Assembly (NCBI GenBank): GCA_964504535.1
Contig: CAZDED010000003.1
Location: forward strand, 70,850 to 134,849
Origin: an uncultured Gammaproteobacteria bacterium
GTDB lineage: Bacteria; Patescibacteriota; Microgenomatia; Levybacterales; GWA1-39-11
Length of the DNA: 64,000 bases
Reading direction: 5' to 3'
The notes under the pieces were generated by a model that searched no databases, was not told where the DNA came from, and worked only from the letters and a program-made list of their open reading frames with translations. The translations under genes and the position numbers were made by a program. This document shows positions 38,709 to 54,190 of this stretch, piece by piece (position 1 is the stretch's first letter; each line of letters opens with the position of its first letter).

Positions 38709-39564
38709 GTGCGCTCCCTTTCATCTCTGGATTTTTGGAAGAGCCATTAAGAAGCATCCTCTTTGAAGCGTGAAGGAACCATGAAGAATCAGGATCCATT
38801 TCCCGTATTTTCTGGTATGTCTCAGTCAGATCAATATTCAGACTTTCCCCTCCCCTTTTGTCAGGAAGAGCTTTGATACGAACAAATCCTACGCTAGGAT
38901 CCTTCCGCACTGATATCCTGTATCCCATCATCTGTGCACGCTTCAATACTTCATCATTAATTGTCTCAACTCCAATTGCTTTTCCCCACTTCGACTCGAA
39001 TTCTATTCCTTTCTCCTTTATCTCACTTTCAGCCCAAATTTTGGCTTCTAAATTGTGTAAAATGTCATCTAAAATTTCGAAACAAAACTCAACAAGGGCC
39101 ATGTCCTCCCCTTTATGTAAAATCTTGTATCCCTGAATTATTCCAACGATACCCGCTTCATAAACATCTGCATTGCTATCGGGATAATATACCTCTTGAA
39201 AATGATCGTCATCAATAACAAGCTCAACAATCCTTTTGACAGCTTCTCTTTTGTTGTCGTGCTTTTGAAGAGTTGACTCTTGATTTGATAAGACAAAATC
39301 CAAGGTCAGGCTGGCACCACAAATAGTGTTATCCCCTGTCTGATGATGATCAAGCGCACCAAGCCCGGTATCAACGTGTATCACAGGGATCCCATCAACT
39401 GCTTCGATAGCCTGTCCCTCATTTCCATATTGTCCAGGCAATTTCTCTCCAGCGTTAACAAAAGCTATCTCTGCCTCTTCCCAGCCAGGCATGAACCGCT
39501 TGAGTAGCCAGACGCTTGTTATCGCATCAAGATCAGATGATTTATGGGTAACGATTTTTCTCAT
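38671..39564 (-). CDS. DHH-family phosphoesterase (NrnA-like)
   Basis: DHH motif VIHVDTGLGALDHHQTGD; start taken at MRKIVTHK. Confidence 0.65.
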   Translation of the reverse strand: MRKIVTHKSSDLDAITSVWLLKRFMPGWEEAEIAFVNAGEKLPGQYGNEGQAIEAVDGIPVIHVDTGLGALDHHQTGDNTICGASLTLDFVLSNQESTLQKHDNKREAVKRIVELVIDDDHFQEVYYPDSNADVYEAGIVGIIQGYKILHKGEDMALVEFCFEILDDILHNLEAKIWAESEIKEKGIEFESKWGKAIGVETINDEVLKRAQMMGYRISVRKDPSVGFVRIKALPDKRGGESLNIDLTETYQKIREMDPDSSWFLHASKRMLLNGSSKNPEMKGSALTLAEVIEVLKV

Positions 39565-46601: not shown

Positions 46602-47183
46602 TTGGGATTATATACTAAAAAAGACACTCTTACAAATATTATGAGCTCATATTACCAGCAAAAACAAATGATTGCCACCTGCGACAAGAATGGAAATATT
46701 ACTGGGGAAGTTGAAAAATGGGAGGCGCATAAAAAAGGAATTTTGCACAGGGCATACACTGTAGCTATTATGCACAAAGGGAAACTTTTGCTCCAGCACA
46801 GAAAACATCCTGCCTTTGGAGGGGTTTTGGATGCAACTATTTCTTCGCATCAACTCGTTATTAACGGAAAACTTGAGGATACTATAGAATCTACAATAAG
46901 GACTCTTGAGCGTGAGTGGAACATCACAAAAAAAGATCTGTTAAAACCTATTAGAAATGACGGGTGGGTATATTACAAAGCAAATGATAAATTTTCGGAT
47001 TTTATTGAGCATGAAGTATGCGATATCTTGATCGCTGAGATCAAATCAATTAAGGAACCGAATTTTGAATTCGCATATGGATATTCTGTCGTTACTCTGG
47101 ACGAATTGCACGACACATCGACGCTACTATACACGACACTCGCTCCATGGGTACAAGTCATGATTCAAAAAAAACTTCTCTAA
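46602..47183 (+). CDS. idi: isopentenyl-diphosphate delta-isomerase type 1-like (NUDIX fold)
   Basis: LHRAYTV / LLLQHRKHPAFGGVLD / HEVCDI correspond to IDI-1 conserved blocks; catalytic Cys appears replaced by Ser. Confidence 0.5.
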   Translation: MGLYTKKDTLTNIMSSYYQQKQMIATCDKNGNITGEVEKWEAHKKGILHRAYTVAIMHKGKLLLQHRKHPAFGGVLDATISSHQLVINGKLEDTIESTIRTLEREWNITKKDLLKPIRNDGWVYYKANDKFSDFIEHEVCDILIAEIKSIKEPNFEFAYGYSVVTLDELHDTSTLLYTTLAPWVQVMIQKKLL

Positions 47184-47315
47184 TTTCTAAAAAATAAAGA
47201 TATTTTCTACCTTTAGTAGTATAATCTAGCTAAATTTGAGGACAAACTAGCAGAAATGCTCTCCTAGCACGTTTTCATTTTTTATTTTACTTGCACATTG
47301 AAATTATTGGGAGAA

Positions 47316-47367
47316 GTCATATTCGACAATCAGGTTATATGCTTGTAGTTTGATTGTCGAATATGAC
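47316..47367. promoter_or_regulatory. perfect 17-bp inverted repeat GTCATATTCGACAATCA-N18-TGATTGTCGAATATGAC immediately upstream of RBS
   Basis: seen directly. Confidence 0.6.
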
Positions 47368-47384
47368 ACAGGAGGAAGTGAACT

Positions 47385-47531
47385 TTGTCTAGGAAAAAGG
47401 AGGTGGCACCACCCCTACCCAACTCGAAGGCTGCCCGCCAGGCTGCGTACAGGAAGATGACGAATTATGCACTGAGCATCGTCTTAGTACTGTACGTTGC
47501 CATCATGGCTACGGGCGCCATCATCAAGTAG
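47385..47531 (+). CDS. small GC-rich ORF, 48 aa, TTG start, single C-terminal TM helix
   Basis: GGAGG 9 nt upstream of TTG; GC-rich codons; hydrophobic YALSIVLVLYVAIMATGAII. Confidence 0.35.
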   Translation: MSRKKEVAPPLPNSKAARQAAYRKMTNYALSIVLVLYVAIMATGAIIK

Positions 47532-47679
47532 TCGTCTTCGTCTATGAGGACGTTAAAAATGGCGAAAAGGAGGGCTGGCTAACCGAGCCGCATCATAAGT
47601 GACTGAGGGAGTTGCACGAACACGCCCCGGGTTTTCCCGGGGCAACAGAACCACCCCGCGCAACGGGGGGAGGGAGAAC

Positions 47680-48021
47680 ATGTCACTCTTAAGAATCTTC
47701 GGATCGAAGAAGGCTCCAGCTGCGACCAAGGTCGTAGAAGCGCCTTACGTGCCGAAGAACACGCCGCCGCCTGGCTTCGTGCGCCTTTCCAAACCGGAAG
47801 GTGCAGACGACAAGGATCTTTGCGGAGATTACAACGGCTGGATTTGTCCGCCCGATCCGGATTGCACGATCTGCTTTTACGGCGGGTACATGAAGGTCGA
47901 CAACGACATCCAGGTTTGCGCCTGCCGACGCGCTGACGACAAGGTCAGAGCGAGCACGGCAGCTGCATCTGCAGCTGCAGAATCGCACAAGCTCTCCATG
48001 TCCAAGGGAAGCAAATCCTGA
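47680..48021 (+). CDS. GC-rich Cys-rich small protein (113 aa, 7 Cys)
   Basis: RBS GGGAGGGAG 4 nt upstream of ATG 47680 (internal Met of track ORF 47599..48021); CGDYNGWICPPDPDCTICF...CACRR. Confidence 0.5.
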   Translation: MSLLRIFGSKKAPAATKVVEAPYVPKNTPPPGFVRLSKPEGADDKDLCGDYNGWICPPDPDCTICFYGGYMKVDNDIQVCACRRADDKVRASTAAASAAAESHKLSMSKGSKS

Positions 48022-48061
48022 AGGCAGTCTTCCAACTCCCAGAGTTCTCTGTGCAAATCAG

Positions 48062-48094
48062 GCCACCTCCACCCAGGAGGTGGCCTTTTTTGTA
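48062..48094 (+). terminator. intrinsic terminator GGCCACCTCC-ACCCA-GGAGGTGGCC + TTTTTT
   Basis: seen directly. Confidence 0.75.
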
Positions 48095-48132
48095 TTGTGA
48101 TAAGGACCCCACATCAAGTACAGGGTGACAGT

Positions 48133-50053: not shown

Positions 50054-50239
50054 CTAGTATTGATTGTGCTTTGCCATTTTTTGCTTCAGTGCTTTTTTGA
50101 ATTTTTTTGCCAATGAAGGCTTAAGATGAAATTCTCTTTTTTTCATCTCATGAATAATACCCTCGCTCATAACTTTGCGAGAAAATTTTCTGATCATAGC
50201 ATCTGGGCTGTCGCCAGGTTGTTTTTTAATAAAAACCAT
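50054..50239 (-). CDS. rpsU: 30S ribosomal protein S21
   Basis: 61 aa basic; MVFIKKQPGDSPDAMIRKFSRKV; RBS AAGGAGGTG. Confidence 0.8.
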   Translation of the reverse strand: MVFIKKQPGDSPDAMIRKFSRKVMSEGIIHEMKKREFHLKPSLAKKFKKALKQKMAKHNQY

Positions 50240-50479
50240 AGAATAAAAACACCTCCTTAAAACACTTGTACTTACTACAAGATACGGTAATTATACCTCA
50301 AAAGCTTTTCAAAAAAAACTAATAGATTTTGAGGTACTAGCTTTGCTTATATCTCAACTTCATCAAAATATAAATACGTGCATTGAGATAGAGAACGATA
50401 GGGCTCATACCTCAAACTCATTTTCAAATAAAACTACCTTGAAATATGTTTATTCATATCCTATAATCTCTTTACCGTA

Positions 50480-51250
50480 AACGCTTTCCCGCTTATACGG
50501 GCACTTTTATATACATTTGCATGTTCCACCCGCTTGTCGGGTGTTTCATAATCCATATGAAGAGGTTAGACATGTAGGAGCGCCCACACAGCCGCATCAT
50601 CATCAGAAGCAGGCAGACACCCGTAAGGGTCTGTCCGACAACATCAAGCCTGCCATCTTGGCGGTAACGTCTGAATACTCAAGTGGGTGATGGACGGGGG
50701 GACTGACCCCGTCCTGATCCTCAGATAGGGATTTAGTGGGTTACCTGATTCACGAATATCAGGTAATTTTCGCTGAGTTTCTACCAACACCCTTGATCGC
50801 ACGTGATCCAGAAGTTTTAGTTGCACATAGATGTGACTATTCCTCCGACTTGAGTTATAGGCTGGATCTCTGGCCTAGCCCTATCCGCTTTTCCCGCTGC
50901 AGATAAGCAGCACGATTTAGGAAAGTGGGAGAGGCCACTTTCAAACGGGACGAGCCAACTACCTCTGGGTTTCTACCGTCTTGTCGGCTCGTCCCACCTC
51001 TAGACGGGTTCAGTGCAGGCGTAAGGGCCTGCACTTCCCCTCTTCCCGGGGGGAGGTGGGTGCGATACCACCTCCCCCTATGGGGACATGCAAATGACTA
51101 GACACATCCTGTCTGCCATCGCTTAATGAGCGCAAGCGAAATTGGGCGGACCGTGATTGATCAGGGAGCTTTTTTAGGCTCCCAATTCTTGCTCCCGCCG
51201 GCGCCTCTGACAGAGAACCGGCGGGAGTCATACAACAATTTCCCACACAA
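50480..51250 (+). ncRNA. GC-rich, ORF-free, hairpin-dense candidate large structured ncRNA of unknown class (strand assigned from GNRA tetraloop orientation)
   Basis: >=8 stem-loops seen directly (e.g. 50614-50633, 50694-50716, 50925-50945, 50947-50995, 51010-51035, 51163-51183, 51192-51222); GUAA/GCAA loops. Confidence 0.45.
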
Positions 51251-51285: not shown

Positions 51286-51618
51286 TTACTTAATTGGCGC
51301 TTGTAGCCCCGTTGGACCAATGAGGTGAAAATGAAGATGATTGATGACTTGCCCGCCTCCGGCATTTACTAATATTTTATACCCTTTTCCAACCAAATCT
51401 GTTTCATCAACTATTTTTTGGATACCTTTCCTAACAGAAGACAAAACATCATCGTCATGCAAATCTTCAAAAGCTCCATAATGCTCTTTACTTATGAAAA
51501 GCACATGGATTTTTGCAACAGGATGGATATCATCAAATGCCAAGACATTTTCGTCCTTAAATCTAAAGTCCTTCGGAATTTCCCCTTTAACAATCTCGCA
51601 AAAAATACAATCATTCAT
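51286..51618 (-). CDS. HIT-family (histidine triad) nucleotide hydrolase
   Basis: HLHFHLIG histidine triad. Confidence 0.8.
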   Translation of the reverse strand: MNDCIFCEIVKGEIPKDFRFKDENVLAFDDIHPVAKIHVLFISKEHYGAFEDLHDDDVLSSVRKGIQKIVDETDLVGKGYKILVNAGGGQVINHLHFHLIGPTGLQAPIK

Positions 51619-53314: not shown

Positions 53315-53487
53315 GAGGGTAATTATAGCATGCTTAAGACTCTGCCTATATCTCATGTCTCTCACCCAGTAGGATTTATGTCCTCCTTTACCCTTGTGGT
53401 ATAATCGGACAGTTATTGTGCACTCTGCGACTTGAGCGGAAAATGCACGACAGCACATTCAAAATTGGTCGAAAGAAAGGGCACTCA

Positions 53488-54015
53488 ATGCTCACTGTCA
53501 TTCTCGTTGCTCTCACAGGACTACTTCTTGGCGTGTACCTTGCTCGCCGCCATCATGAACAAACCGGAACCAGTATCTGGTTCGGCATGATCGGTATCAT
53601 GTTCGGAACAACCGTTGGACTCATCATCGCCACAGTCTGGGGCAACTCCAGTCCCACGAAATGGGAGGAAGTCAACAGGAGAGAGCTTTACGGCCTCTCA
53701 AACGGCCTCAGCGCAACGGGAGGAGGACGCGTATATGTACGTATCTCTCCTACCAACGCGTACACCTATTGGTATCCTGTCAAGAATGACATCAACGGTA
53801 TTCCCGTTGAGGACTCGTTCCGCTCAGAAACCGCTTGGGGAAACGTTCAGATCATCCAAGAGGAGCGCCAAGGCGGTATTCTGGTCATCTATCAAAAGGT
53901 GTGCGCCAAAAATGCTTATGATCTGTGGAGATTCTGCAGTATCGAAAGCAACAACCGCCAATACTCCTTCTATGTTCCGAAAGGAACAGTAGCTGGAACG
54001 TACGAGCTCAAGTAA
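53488..54015 (+). CDS. GC-elevated membrane-anchored protein (2 N-terminal TM plus beta-rich domain), unknown
   Basis: ATG 53488 with AAGAAAGGG upstream; followed by 12-bp GC hairpin at ~54018-54045. Confidence 0.45.
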   Translation: MLTVILVALTGLLLGVYLARRHHEQTGTSIWFGMIGIMFGTTVGLIIATVWGNSSPTKWEEVNRRELYGLSNGLSATGGGRVYVRISPTNAYTYWYPVKNDINGIPVEDSFRSETAWGNVQIIQEERQGGILVIYQKVCAKNAYDLWRFCSIESNNRQYSFYVPKGTVAGTYELK

Positions 54016-54190
54016 TCGACCAACGCCGGGGTATGCACAAGCATATCCCGGCACCCACACTGTTTCCTCAAAATGCTTTGCATTTTTAAACGTTCACAAA
54101 AGTTTATTTCGGGATATTTTTCTCGATATGATTTCCCCATGCCTAAATAGACCAGATAAAATTCTGGTCCATATTTACCATTCGAAATAG

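What the first reader, a model, noticed from the sequence alone, without database searches (positions are those of the whole stretch)
47200..48095. GC-rich two-gene island between idi and dnaX: 17-bp perfect palindrome, 48-aa TM peptide, 113-aa Cys-rich protein, strong terminator
GC rises abruptly at about 47370 and falls again after the GGCCACCTCC-loop-GGAGGTGGCC-T6 terminator at about 48062-48094. Immediately upstream is a perfect 17-bp inverted repeat with an 18-nt spacer (47316-47367), suitable for a dimeric repressor or an RNA hairpin occluding the RBS. The first ORF (TTG start, GGAGG RBS) is a 48-aa single-TM peptide. The second (RBS GGGAGGGAG) is a 113-aa protein with seven Cys in CGDYNGWICPPDPDCTICF...CACRR and no signal peptide. 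An extended -10 TAGTAGTATAAT (about 47208) is identical to the one upstream of the cassette array at about 738. The codon usage looks foreign, perhaps acquired from a GC-rich host organism. It could be a small toxin/immunity or redox module.
Basis: partly seen in the sequence, partly recalled or inferred. Interest (0 to 1): 0.65.

Follow-up and report, generated by a model that had tools for sequence, protein, structure and literature searches.

The report
GC-rich closed-loop small-protein operon
The GC-rich patch next to dnaX is not foreign DNA. It is an old, lineage-specific two-gene operon for two tiny proteins, and its messenger RNA appears built to fold back on itself, with untranslated ends far better conserved than the proteins it encodes.

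Summary
GC jumps from 0.33 to about 0.60 over 47370-48095. The 17-bp perfect inverted repeat, both ORFs and the terminator are all present. ORF2 has six Cys, not seven.

Both ORFs are real coding genes. For ORF2, dN/dS is 0.15 and codon-position differences are 16/12/45. Both ORFs have in-frame indels. Neither matches a known family.

The unit lies beside dnaX (convergent) in every relative where that flank is on the contig (dnaX 62-86% identical). Where the upstream flank is held it usually follows the idi-like gene. It is GC-rich in every relative with an AT-rich genome (GC3 0.57-0.73 against a genome median of 0.33). Recent transfer and mis-assembly are therefore rejected.

The proteins evolve fastest (ORF2 30-78% identical where idi is 96%). 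The 5' leader (90-92%) evolves slowest, and the 3'UTR is 77-90% identical.

The palindrome behaves as a plus-strand RNA hairpin. A leader box (47291-47313) is predicted to pair with the 3'UTR (48036-48056) in all eight lineages folded. There are some compensatory changes, but statistical support is modest. The same architecture recurs in two unrelated GC-rich units, one of them in this window (53406-54065).

Best reading: a nuclease-resistant, translation-limited closed-loop mRNA. What the two proteins do is unknown.

The parts
47214..47225 (+). Promoter region: -10 TATAAT at 47220-47225 inside the 12-mer TAGTAGTATAAT. The upstream AGATATTTT block is conserved in relatives.
   Evidence: Homology with relatives begins here, even where the upstream gene differs (L001).
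47226..47315 (+). AT-rich 5' leader, 90-92% identical across relatives. It contains a small 5'-terminal hairpin (about 47229-47251), a CUCUCCUAG element (47260-47268) and a U-rich tract.
   Evidence: G-C to A-U covariation at the base of the 5' hairpin was read by eye in L117. The sequence is unique in the window.
47291..47313 (+). Leader box UUGCACAUUGAAAUUAUUGGGAG: the 5' strand of the predicted long-range closing helix.
   Evidence: It pairs with 48036-48056 in the MFE of the full 870-nt transcript and in 7 other lineages. Duplex z-scores are -2.5 to -4.7 in the close lineages.
47316..47367 (+). Perfect 17-bp inverted repeat, read as an RNA hairpin directly upstream of the ORF1 SD.
   Evidence: Alifold gives 18 pairs, 3 with changes on both sides. 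The G.U pairs are valid only on the + strand, and the loop varies from 18 to about 45 nt.
47370..47375 (+). Shine-Dalgarno AGGAGG of ORF1.
   Evidence: Conserved in relatives.
47385..47531 (+). ORF1: 48 aa, UUG start, basic N-terminal half and one hydrophobic C-terminal segment, suggesting a tail-anchored single-pass membrane peptide.
   Evidence: In-frame indels and dN/dS of 0.26-0.46. Homologs in L015, L103/L119, L112 and L117. The TM segment was judged by inspection only.
47532..47679 (+). GC-rich structured spacer. It holds a conserved nested hairpin just after the ORF1 stop, an orphan SD-like AAAAGGAGGG (47565-47574), and hairpins at 47624-47643 and 47654-47668.
   Evidence: In L103/L119 the equivalent SD is followed by an extra 77-aa paralog of ORF2.
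47680..48021 (+). ORF2: 113 aa, an orphan small protein with a conserved CxxC[FY]GxG[YF]...CxC core (C62, C65, G69, C80, C82) that probably binds a metal.
   Evidence: dN/dS 0.15 and codon-position differences 16/12/45. The family has only about 10 clusters. The AF2 core has pLDDT of about 80-85, with no fold match.
48036..48056 (+). 3'UTR element CUCCCAGAGUUCUCUGUGCAA: the 3' strand of the predicted closing helix.
   Evidence: The core elements CUCCCA, UUC and UGUGCAA are invariant in window/L001/L098/L117/L112 although ORF2 falls to 30% identity; the short spacers between them vary.
48061..48091 (+). Intrinsic terminator GGCCACCUCC-ACCCA-GGAGGUGGCC plus U6. The stem is nearly invariant in close relatives (one compensated pair in L112), and the loop is invariant.
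48107..48125 (-). Hairpin at the 3' end of the convergent dnaX gene. It is a neighbour, not part of the unit.
   Evidence: L001 has a perfect stem. The window copy keeps it only through G.U pairs on the minus strand (read by eye).

Best explanation
The island is a vertically inherited, lineage-specific bicistronic operon.

Layout: a sigma-70-like promoter (-10 at 47220-47225) drives a transcript of about 870 nt. It encodes a 48-aa tail-anchored membrane peptide (ORF1, UUG start) and a 113-aa CxxC...CxC protein that probably binds a metal (ORF2).

Main inference: the high GC content is an old, maintained property of the mRNA, not a trace of foreign origin. The transcript appears built as a compact, strongly base-paired closed loop made of four elements:
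- a small hairpin at the very 5' end;
- a leader box (47291-47313) that pairs with a 3'UTR element (48036-48056) just before the terminator;
- the 17-bp palindrome, which forms an RNA hairpin stacked next to that closing helix and immediately upstream of the ORF1 ribosome-binding site;
- a nearly invariant terminator hairpin.

Inferred function: this design protects both RNA ends and the body from ribonucleases, giving a long-lived message. Translation stays low or conditional because of the weak UUG start, the structured RBS surroundings, and a local alternative partner for the GGGAG box at 47260-47268.

Shown: the genes are coding, the synteny and GC content are conserved, the UTRs are ultraconserved while the proteins evolve fast, and the hairpin covaries.

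Predicted with partial comparative support: the closing helix.

Inferred only: the stability and translation-gating function. What the two proteins do is unknown.
For: Coding:
- ORF2 has dN/dS of 0.15 and codon-position differences of 16/12/45. ORF1 has dN/dS of 0.26-0.46. Both have in-frame indels.

Old and vertically inherited:
- The unit lies beside dnaX (convergent) in every locus where that flank is held, and after the idi-like gene in P0010, L015, L016, L098-L099, L117 and L120-L122.
- ORF2 dS is 0.9, against 0.52 for dnaX.

GC content is maintained:
- GC3 is 0.57-0.73 in every relative from an AT-rich genome, against 0.33-0.37 in flanking genes.

Structure inside the coding region:
- The native ORF2 folds more stably than synonymous-codon permutations in all five independent lineages. 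The z-scores are -2.5, -1.3, -2.25, -1.1 and -3.0.

UTRs are constrained more than the proteins:
- The leader is 90-92% identical and the 3'UTR 77-90%. ORF2 is 30-78% and ORF1 44-53% in genomes whose idi is 96% identical.

Hairpin:
- 18 pairs, 3 with changes on both sides, G.U pairs valid on the + strand only, and a loop of 18 to about 45 nt.

Closing helix:
- It is present in the MFE of all 8 full-length transcripts folded.
- Divergent lineages keep it with different sequences: L015 UUGGGAUU/AAUCCCAA, L119 UUGGGUGAGAU/AUCCCACCCAA (read by eye; duplex), and L016 UUGGAAAUU/AAUUUCCAA.
- The cognate partner is best for the L015 and L119 3' segments.

Recurrence of the architecture:
- L119 unit 2 has UGAAAUGUUGCGU/ACGCAACACUUCA.
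- The window unit 53406-54065 has UUGGUCGA/UCGACCAA.
- A covariance model of box plus hairpin plus SD finds non-training leaders in L015 (E = 4e-4) and L119 (E = 0.019).

Experimentally shown analogues of 5'/3' UTR pairing:
- hbs (PMC5737220), icaR (PMC3868564) and hok (PMC9841398).
Against: - The closing helix rests mainly on prediction. On a hand-built alignment of 5 distinct sequences, only 2 pairs change on both sides, and 53 of 500 shuffles do as well.
- Shuffling the 3'UTR still gave 15-16 long-range MFE pairs in 3 of 20 trials, against 17 observed.
- Duplex z-scores for L015 and L016 are only -1.3.
- The ORF1 SD is no more paired (P unpaired 0.2-0.35) than the transcript average (0.36-0.39), so no specific translational occlusion is shown.
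- Selection for RNA structure alone may not explain a 30-point GC3 excess.
- The leader box is conserved in sequence even between unrelated units. Pairing alone does not explain this; it hints at an unidentified protein or RNase partner.
- There are no expression data, no mapped transcript ends and no RNA half-life.
Confidence: 0.55

Rival explanations
1. A hok-like type I toxin-antitoxin module. ORF1 would be a small membrane toxin whose full-length mRNA is kept inert by a 5'-3' fold-back (tac/fbi-like) and activated by 3' processing. ORF2 would be an accessory protein or an antidote.
For: - ORF1 is a 48-aa peptide with one hydrophobic segment.
- The weak UUG start is conserved in all lineages.
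- A 5'/3' closing helix is predicted.
- The GGGAG box has an alternative local partner, so a refolding switch is possible.
- Both proteins evolve fast.
- hok uses exactly this kind of long-distance 5'/3' closure (PMC9841398).
Against: - No antisense promoter matching the consensus lies within the leader or ORF1. The only minus-strand site (47245-47218) overlaps the sense -10 and points away.
- There is no overlapping mok-like frame.
- The unit is a fixed, syntenic core feature in every relative, not patchy like TA loci.
- L016 keeps ORF2, the closing helix and the GC content but has no ORF1.
- No PADLOC or Pfam toxin family matches.
- The same architecture precedes unrelated proteins.
Confidence: 0.12
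2. A horizontally acquired island from a GC-rich donor (host or phage), either recent or refreshed repeatedly by allele exchange, so that the GC content reflects the donor's composition.
For: - GC3 of 0.65-0.71 against 0.33 in the genome.
- One family member (P0008, L104) sits in a contig of about 65% GC, next to a sigma-factor-like gene, and is 55% identical to P0010 from the syntenic AT-rich context.
- ORF2 identity falls far faster than that of the flanking genes.
- L001 and L003 share an identical ORF2 but differ in ORF1 and the hairpin. This is a mosaic and implies recombination within the locus.
Against: - The locus, promoter, leader and terminator are the same in lineages with dnaX 62-86% identical, and all are GC-rich.
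- ORF2 dS is at least that of dnaX.
- There are no mobility genes, no direct repeats at the borders, and only a weak 24-nt 71% inverted repeat.
- No relative was found in viral contigs.
- The AT-rich leader is the best-conserved part.
- L104 is an 851-nt contig and could be chimeric.
Confidence: 0.12
3. The palindrome is a DNA operator for a dimeric repressor, and the conserved leader is a DNA-level regulatory region rather than an RNA structure.
For: - The repeat is a perfect 17-bp inverted repeat in the window.
- The arm sequence itself (GTCRTATYCGACAAYC) is conserved, not just the pairing.
- The leader box is conserved in sequence between unrelated units.
Against: - The spacing between half-sites varies from 18 to about 45 nt.
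- In L001, L003, L098 and L117 the symmetry is broken at positions that remain G.U pairs on the + strand RNA only.
- The repeat lies about 90 nt downstream of the -10, inside the transcript.
- No regulator gene is linked.
Confidence: 0.1
4. The GC-richness is a by-product of GC-biased gene conversion at a recombination hotspot, with no role for RNA structure.
For: - Mosaic alleles exist (L001 versus L003).
- ORF2 divergence is steep and uneven relative to dnaX.
Against: - The leader, which lies in the same recombining unit and carries the most conserved flank, stays at about 33% GC.
- Native ORF2 sequences fold better than synonymous permutations of the same composition.
- An ORF-less GC-rich RNA island lies in the same genome.
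- The size of the effect (+30 points of GC3) is large for biased gene conversion (my judgement).
Confidence: 0.08
5. Artefact: a mis-assembly, or a non-coding structured RNA with chance ORFs.
For: GC-rich DNA produces long ORFs in several frames. The region folds strongly.
Against: - Identical junctions appear in independent assemblies from ENA, Logan and JGI samples.
- There is an excess of third-position substitutions, and indels are in frame in the annotated frames.
- Protein homologs are detectable at 30-48% identity.
Confidence: 0.02

Closest known systems
B. subtilis hbs mRNA 5'/3'-UTR interaction (Braun, Durand and Condon 2017, PMC5737220)
   Same: A long-range helix joins the 5' leader and the 3'UTR of one small-protein mRNA: 14 bp in hbs and about 17 bp predicted here. 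In both cases it lies in a highly structured leader next to a strong SD. In hbs it modulates RNase Y cleavage and so couples stability to translation. That is the function I infer here.
   Different: There is no sequence relation. Here the message is bicistronic and the whole body is GC-rich in an AT-rich genome. The leader box is shared by several unrelated units. No RNase site or half-life is known.
hok/sok tac-fbi fold-back (type I toxin-antitoxin; PMC9841398 and references therein)
   Same: A small single-TM peptide is encoded on a stable, highly structured mRNA closed by pairing between the 5' and 3' ends. Alternative local pairings could allow refolding.
   Different: No antisense RNA or promoter was found and there is no mok-like overlapping frame. 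There is a second 113-aa cistron. The locus is fixed, syntenic and vertically inherited. One lineage keeps the architecture without ORF1.
S. aureus icaR 3'UTR anti-SD / 5'UTR pairing (Ruiz de los Mozos et al. 2013, PMC3868564)
   Same: A C-rich 3'UTR motif (CUCCCA here, UCCCCUG in icaR) pairs with a GGGAG-type purine box in the 5'UTR of the same mRNA.
   Different: Here the paired GGGAG (47309-47313) is not the functional SD, which is AGGAGG at 47370-47375. The 3'UTR is short (about 70 nt). An RNase III role is unknown.
DnaJ-type CxxCxGxG zinc-finger modules
   Same: The conserved ORF2 core C-x2-C-[FY]-G-x-G-[YF] resembles one CxxCxGxG repeat. Four Cys could bind one metal.
   Different: There is only one such repeat, and the second ligand pair is CxC. 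The Pfam scan gave no zinc-finger hit at E up to 10, and there is no structural match. The resemblance is my reading of a motif, not a test.

Membership tests
Horizontally acquired genomic island | Composition atypical for the host genome | tested here: met
   GC 0.54-0.60 against about 0.38. GC3 0.65-0.71 against a median of 0.325.
Horizontally acquired genomic island | Patchy presence: absent from the same locus in related genomes | tested here: not met
   Present beside dnaX in every relative whose contig reaches that flank, with dnaX 62-86% identical.
Horizontally acquired genomic island | Mobility signatures: integrase or transposase, a flanking tRNA, or direct repeats | tested here: not met
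   No such genes between idi and dnaX. tRNAs lie only at 21.4-22.3 kb. Only a 24-nt 71% inverted repeat lies at the borders. No viral relatives.
Type I toxin-antitoxin (hok/sok-like) | Small (<60 aa) hydrophobic membrane peptide | tested here: met
   ORF1 is 48 aa and residues 27-48 are almost all hydrophobic (by inspection). No TM predictor was available.
Type I toxin-antitoxin (hok/sok-like) | Long-range 5'-3' pairing that closes the full-length mRNA | tested here: inconclusive
   Predicted in 8 of 8 lineages with some compensatory change. Controls give weak support.
Type I toxin-antitoxin (hok/sok-like) | Cis-encoded antisense RNA with its own promoter overlapping the toxin leader or RBS | tested here: not met
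   The consensus scan finds no minus-strand promoter between 47250 and 47700. The scan covers only sigma-70-type consensus.
Type I toxin-antitoxin (hok/sok-like) | Toxicity of the peptide on expression | not testable with these tools
   Needs an experiment.
icaR-type 3'UTR anti-SD control | The 3'UTR motif pairs with the functional SD of the same mRNA | tested here: not met
   The partner of CUCCCA is GGGAG at 47309-47313, about 60 nt upstream of the functional AGGAGG at 47370-47375.
hbs-type 5'/3'-UTR stabilising interaction | Helix of 10 bp or more between the 5' leader and the 3'UTR of one mRNA | tested here: inconclusive
   17 pairs in the MFE and a summed pair probability of about 18. This is a prediction only.
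hbs-type 5'/3'-UTR stabilising interaction | The helix overlaps and masks an endoribonuclease site and alters mRNA half-life | not testable with these tools
   Needs RNase mapping and half-life measurements.
DnaJ-type cysteine-rich domain (CxxCxGxG repeats) | Paired CxxCxGxG repeats, recognised by the Pfam model | tested here: not met
   One CxxC[FY]GxG plus a CxC. No Pfam hit for any of 11 members at E up to 10, apart from one weak DUF5351 hit.
Any Rfam RNA family | Match at the family's gathering score | tested here: not met
   No hit in the window region or in relatives.
Dimeric-repressor operator | Fixed half-site spacing and DNA-level symmetry kept in relatives | tested here: not met
   Spacer 18 to about 45 nt. 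Symmetry is replaced by G.U-compatible changes.

The most novel reading that the evidence does not exclude
This lineage, which has no close relative among the GTDB species genomes scanned, may carry a previously undescribed class of transcription units. Fast-evolving small membrane or metal-binding proteins are carried on GC-rich mRNAs. These share a conserved leader module (5' hairpin, U-tract, GCACAUUGAAAUU box, long hairpin, SD). Each closes on itself through a unit-specific pairing between the leader and the 3'UTR.

The shared box would be the handle for a dedicated RNA-binding protein or RNase. That partner would control a whole regulon of closed-loop messages, and GC content would be selected as an RNA-level trait in protein-coding genes.
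Probability: 0.3. Interest if true: 0.8.

Novelty: new variant of a known kind. Interest (0 to 1): 0.6.

Why it matters
Three points would matter if the reading is right.

1. A strong compositional island in a small AT-rich genome can be old, native and selected. GC or codon-usage screens for horizontal transfer would misclassify it.

2. The conservation pattern is the reverse of the usual one. The untranslated ends (leader 90-92% identical) are held almost fixed while the proteins fall to 30% identity. This points to RNA-level function as the dominant constraint on a protein-coding operon.

3. The same design (leader box, long hairpin, GC-rich body, 3' complement, terminator) recurs at unrelated genes. 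That suggests a lineage-wide post-transcriptional control system resembling the few 5'/3' UTR interactions shown experimentally in bacteria (hbs, icaR, hok). It would be testable with Term-seq, structure probing and recoding.

The two proteins themselves form new, very rare families: about ten clusters among billions of predicted proteins.

Tried and rejected
- Known RNA families: none in Rfam at gathering or E-value thresholds.
- Known protein families: none in Pfam, NCBIfam, PADLOC or PHROGs for either protein. The only weak hits have E of 0.02-0.3.
- GTDB species genomes: no ORF2 relative. The best dnaX relatives are only 39-44% identical.
- JGI metagenome scan with the P0008-P0010 profile: found nothing.
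- Viral contigs: no relatives. The two leader-box hits are chance matches inside coding genes.
- The shared 12-mer TAGTAGTATAAT: weak. The unit at 737 has no leader box.
- Non-coding RNA with chance ORFs: rejected on codon-position evidence.
- Specific sequestration of the ORF1 SD: not supported.
- A first shuffle control with partition functions timed out. The MFE-only rerun gave only modest support.
- MAFFT misaligned the divergent closing-helix strands, so the pair count used a hand-registered alignment. This biases the count towards the structure.
Full report

Yes. In 200-nt windows, GC rises from 0.33 (47200-47399) to 0.54-0.605 (47400-48099), then falls back. The bin 47501-48000 is the most GC-rich 500-nt bin of the 64-kb window, at 0.576 against a typical 0.33-0.43.

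The inverted repeat 47316-47332 / 47351-47367 is 17 nt long, 100% complementary, with 18 nt between the arms. Its arm sequence is unique in the window. The terminator GGCCACCTCC-ACCCA-GGAGGTGGCC (48061-48085) plus T6 is found by the scan and is also unique.

ORF1 is 47385-47531 (TTG start, 48 aa, AGGAGG at 47370-47375). ORF2 is 47680-48021 (ATG start, 113 aa).

Three corrections apply:
- ORF2 has six Cys, not seven.
- The 12-mer TAGTAGTATAAT lies at 47214-47225. It does recur at 737-748, but 5 of 100 shuffles also give two or more hits, and it lacks the TGn of a true extended -10.
- The hairpin ends 3 nt before the SD and does not cover it.

Upstream lie an amino-acid-kinase-fold gene (isopentenyl phosphate kinase-like) and an IPP-isomerase-like gene that scores below the NCBIfam cut-off. 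Downstream lies a convergent dnaX.

**2. Are the ORFs coding?**

A 99%-identical copy and a 76%-identical copy of ORF2 exist in other assemblies.

Against the 76% copy, ORF2 differs at codon positions 1/2/3 by 16/12/45, with dN/dS of 0.15. ORF1 has dN/dS of 0.26-0.46. Both carry only in-frame indels and keep their stop codons in place. Both are therefore genes under purifying selection.

The long ORFs in other frames are by-products of the GC content.

**3. Is it foreign or mis-assembled?**

No. Both junctions appear in independent assemblies from ENA, Logan and JGI samples.

The unit lies beside dnaX (convergent) in every relative whose contig reaches that flank. Usually the order is IPK, idi-like gene, unit, dnaX, ybeY, rpsU. 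These are lineages whose dnaX is 86, 85, 78, 69 and 62% identical to the window's. In L001 the upstream gene differs, and homology starts exactly at the promoter.

Every copy from an AT-rich genome is GC-rich. GC is 0.55-0.62 and GC3 is 0.57-0.73, against 0.33-0.37 for flanking genes and a median of 0.325 for 63 long ORFs of the window.

ORF2 dS (0.9) is at least that of dnaX (0.52). These lineages have diverged to 30-48% protein identity. I infer that a neutral foreign composition would have ameliorated over that span. The GC content is therefore maintained.

There are no mobility genes, border repeats or viral relatives.

One homolog (P0008) lies on an 851-nt contig of about 65% GC, next to a sigma-factor-like gene. 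Ancient exchange with a GC-rich organism cannot be excluded, though that contig may be chimeric.

**4. The proteins**

ORF2 belongs to a very small family. A profile search of 1.84 billion representatives gave 8 proteins at E of 0.001 or better, two of which are repetitive chance hits. Word-indexed searches of 5.8 billion clusters added three more.

The invariant residues are C62, C65, G69 and C80, with C82 and P39 nearly invariant. The core reads C-x2-C-[FY]-G-x-G-[YF]-x(8-12)-C-x-C. By my reading this resembles a single DnaJ-type CxxCxGxG repeat, with four Cys available for a metal.

No family in Pfam, NCBIfam, PADLOC or PHROGs matches. The AF2 core (residues 30-90) has pLDDT of about 80-85 but no PDB fold match.

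ORF1 has a basic N-terminal half and a hydrophobic C-terminal segment of about 21 residues, judged by inspection. It always starts with UUG. Homologs are present in most lineages, but L016 has none. L103 and L119 carry an extra short paralog of ORF2 between the two genes. It sits after an SD that survives as an orphan AAAAGGAGGG at 47565-47574 in the window.

**5. An inverted conservation pattern**

Percent identity to the window copy:

| Relative | idi (aa) | dnaX (aa) | ORF1 (aa) | ORF2 (aa) | Leader (nt) | 3'UTR (nt) |
|---|---|---|---|---|---|---|
| L117 | 96 | 78 | 44 | 30 | 91 | 84 |
| L098 | 96 | 85 | not measured | 48 | 90 | 77 |
| L003 | not on contig | 86 | 53 | 78 | 92 | 90 |

Within the first pairwise alignment, the leader and 3'UTR were 93-95% identical while the ORFs were 62-79%.

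L001 and L003 share an identical ORF2 but differ through ORF1 and the hairpin. The locus is therefore mosaic.

The two proteins are the fastest-evolving features of the neighbourhood. Their untranslated ends are the slowest.

**6. The palindrome is an RNA hairpin**

Across five lineages the 18-pair stem is kept:
- Three pairs change on both sides (G-C to A-U, U-A to C-G, A-U to G-C).
- Several changes are to G.U pairs, which work only on the + strand RNA.
- A few mismatches occur.
- The loop varies from 18 to about 45 nt.

Variable half-site spacing and G.U substitutions argue against a dimeric-repressor operator. However, the arm sequence is itself rather conserved.

**7. A predicted 5'-3' closing helix**

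The ultraconserved leader box UUGCACAUUGAAAUUAUUGGGAG (47291-47313) is complementary to the 3'UTR element CUCCCAGAGUUCUCUGUGCAA (48036-48056). That element ends 4 nt before the terminator stem.

Evidence in favour:
- In minimum-free-energy folds of the full transcripts (about 500-920 nt), this helix appears in all eight lineages tested. Summed pair probabilities are 10-21.
- Divergent lineages keep it with different sequences: L015 UUGGGAUU/AAUCCCAA, L119 UUGGGUGAGAU/AUCCCACCCAA, and L016 UUGGAAAUU/AAUUUCCAA (the L119 pairing was read by eye).
- In a cross-duplex matrix, the cognate 5' strand is the best partner for the L015 and L119 3' strands.

The statistics are modest:
- Duplex z-scores are -2.5 to -4.7 in the close lineages, which are not independent, and -1.3 in L015 and L016.
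- On a hand-registered five-sequence alignment, 88.9% of cells pair, against 25-46% in slid registers. Only two pairs change on both sides, and 53 of 500 shuffles match that.
- Shuffling the 3'UTR gave fewer long-range pairs than the observed 17 in 20 of 20 trials, but three trials reached 15-16.

The strongest extra support is recurrence in unrelated units:
- In L119, a second GC-rich unit with different ORFs has a leader UGAAAUGUUGCGU pairing with ACGCAACACUUCA. That element lies just after its stop codon and just before its terminator.
- In this window, the other GC-rich coding unit (ORF 53488-54015, GC3 0.57) has UUGGUCGA (53465-53472), next to a GCACAUUCAAAAUUGG box. It pairs with UCGACCAA (54016-54023), immediately before a terminal hairpin.
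- A covariance model built from box plus hairpin plus SD finds full-length matches, outside its training set, in front of the second units of L015 (E = 4e-4) and L119 (E = 0.019).

**8. Why GC-rich?**

- The native ORF2 sequence folds more stably than synonymous-codon permutations in all five independent lineages. The z-scores are -2.5, -1.3, -2.25, -1.1 and -3.0. This is a consistent but moderate signal.
- The spacer between the ORFs is a string of conserved hairpins.
- The same genome has an ORF-less, GC-rich island of about 780 nt (about 50461-51240). It is conserved in relatives, with compensatory changes read by eye, and is absent from Rfam. In this lineage, high GC therefore marks structured RNA.
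- The AT-rich leader, in the same recombining unit, has stayed AT-rich. This counts against biased gene conversion as the sole cause.

**9. Mechanism proposed**

Inferred, with overall confidence of about 0.55. The operon is transcribed as one RNA of about 870 nt. The RNA is protected at both ends and throughout its body by four elements:
- a 5'-terminal hairpin;
- the closing helix;
- the long hairpin stacked beside the closing helix, at the ORF1 ribosome-binding site;
- the GC-rich body and the nearly invariant terminator.

The result would be a long-lived, nuclease-resistant message whose translation is kept low or conditional. Three features point that way: the UUG start, the structured surroundings, and a local alternative partner for the GGGAG box (CUCUCCUAG at 47260-47268).

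The closest experimentally shown analogue is the 14-bp 5'/3' UTR interaction of B. subtilis hbs mRNA, which modulates RNase Y cleavage (PMC5737220). icaR (PMC3868564) and hok tac/fbi (PMC9841398) are related designs.

I could not show specific SD sequestration. The box is also conserved in sequence between unrelated units, which suggests an unidentified protein or RNase partner.

What the two proteins do remains unknown. A membrane-anchored peptide plus a small metal-binding partner under rapid diversification is compatible with a toxin/antidote pair or a host-interaction role, but nothing here tests that.

**10. Rivals**

- hok-like type I TA (0.12). Against it: no antisense promoter, no mok-like frame, a fixed syntenic locus, and L016 keeps the rest of the unit without ORF1.
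- Acquisition or repeated allele exchange from GC-rich donors (0.12).
- DNA operator (0.10).
- Biased gene conversion (0.08).
- Artefact (0.02).

**11. Novelty and score**

The individual elements are known kinds: 5'/3' UTR pairing, leader hairpins and small orphan proteins. The combination is not described in anything I could find:
- persistent GC-rich coding islands in an AT-rich genome;
- UTRs conserved far above the proteins they flank;
- a leader module reused at unrelated units, each with its own 3' complement.

I rate it a new variant of a known kind, with interest 0.6.

Noticed in passing
window 50461-51240 (+), between rpsU (50054-50239, -) and a HIT-family gene (51286-51618, -): A second GC-rich island (GC 0.51-0.58) with no ORF longer than 78 aa in any frame. 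It has a CCTATAAT promoter-like box, many GC-rich hairpins and a terminal hairpin. It is conserved in L098 and L120, with compensatory changes and variable loops read by eye. It is absent from Rfam; the only hit is a weak ar7 match of 28.6 bits. This is a candidate for a large (about 780 nt) undescribed structured RNA. L098 carries about 620 nt of extra GC-rich sequence after it.
   Followed up: partly
window 53395-54065 (+): A third GC-rich unit. It has an extended -10 (TGTGGTATAAT, 53395-53405), a leader with a GCACATTCAAAATTGG box, and an ORF at 53488-54015 encoding a two-TM protein (GC3 0.57). An 8-bp perfect leader/3'UTR complement, UUGGUCGA (53465-53472) with UCGACCAA (54016-54023), lies just before a terminal hairpin (54025-54052). 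This is the same closed-loop design as the unit under study.
   Followed up: partly
L119 1000-1875; L015 1840-2272; L103 900-1029: In these relatives a second GC-rich small-ORF unit sits in tandem between the first unit and dnaX. It has its own -10 and a leader that matches the covariance model R1. In L119 it has its own leader/3'UTR complement. Its ORFs include a 75-aa CxxC...CxxC protein.
   Followed up: partly
L103 306-540 and L119 392-577; window 47565-47574: An extra 77-aa paralog of the ORF2 metal-binding core (CNLC...YCLC) lies between ORF1 and ORF2 in this lineage, right after a GAAAGGAGG SD. The window keeps the SD-like AAAAGGAGGG with no ORF behind it, which may be a remnant.
   Followed up: no
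L104 1-851: ORF2 family member P0008 sits on a contig of about 65% GC, 27 nt downstream of a gene with a sigma-70 region-2-like N-terminus and a SHOCT-like motif (both my reading). There is no ORF1 and no long leader. This could reflect exchange with a GC-rich organism or a chimeric short contig.
   Followed up: no
L001 versus L003, alignment A1 columns about 190-480: These two strains have identical sequence from mid-spacer through ORF2 and the 3'UTR, but clearly different hairpin loops and ORF1 (47 versus 48 aa). This indicates a recombination breakpoint inside the operon.
   Followed up: partly
whole window: No GTDB r232 species genome yielded an ORF2 relative. The best dnaX matches were only 39-44% identical and were spread over several phyla. 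The lineage seems unrepresented among species genomes, and its phylum is unverified.
   Followed up: partly
window 48107-48125 (-): The hairpin after the dnaX stop codon is a perfect stem in L001. In the window it survives only through three G.U pairs on the minus strand. This indicates it functions in the dnaX transcript. The 48061-48085 terminator, flanked by an A-run and a T-run, may act in both directions.
   Followed up: no
window 46602-47183 (+): The 'idi' gene has no Pfam hit and reaches only 56 bits against the NCBIfam IPP isomerase model, whose cut-off is 127. It is therefore a divergent relative rather than a confirmed idi.
   Followed up: no
window 38997-39092 (-): A marginal full-length match to the leader model R1 (16.1 bits, E = 0.89). 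It is probably chance and was not examined.
   Followed up: no
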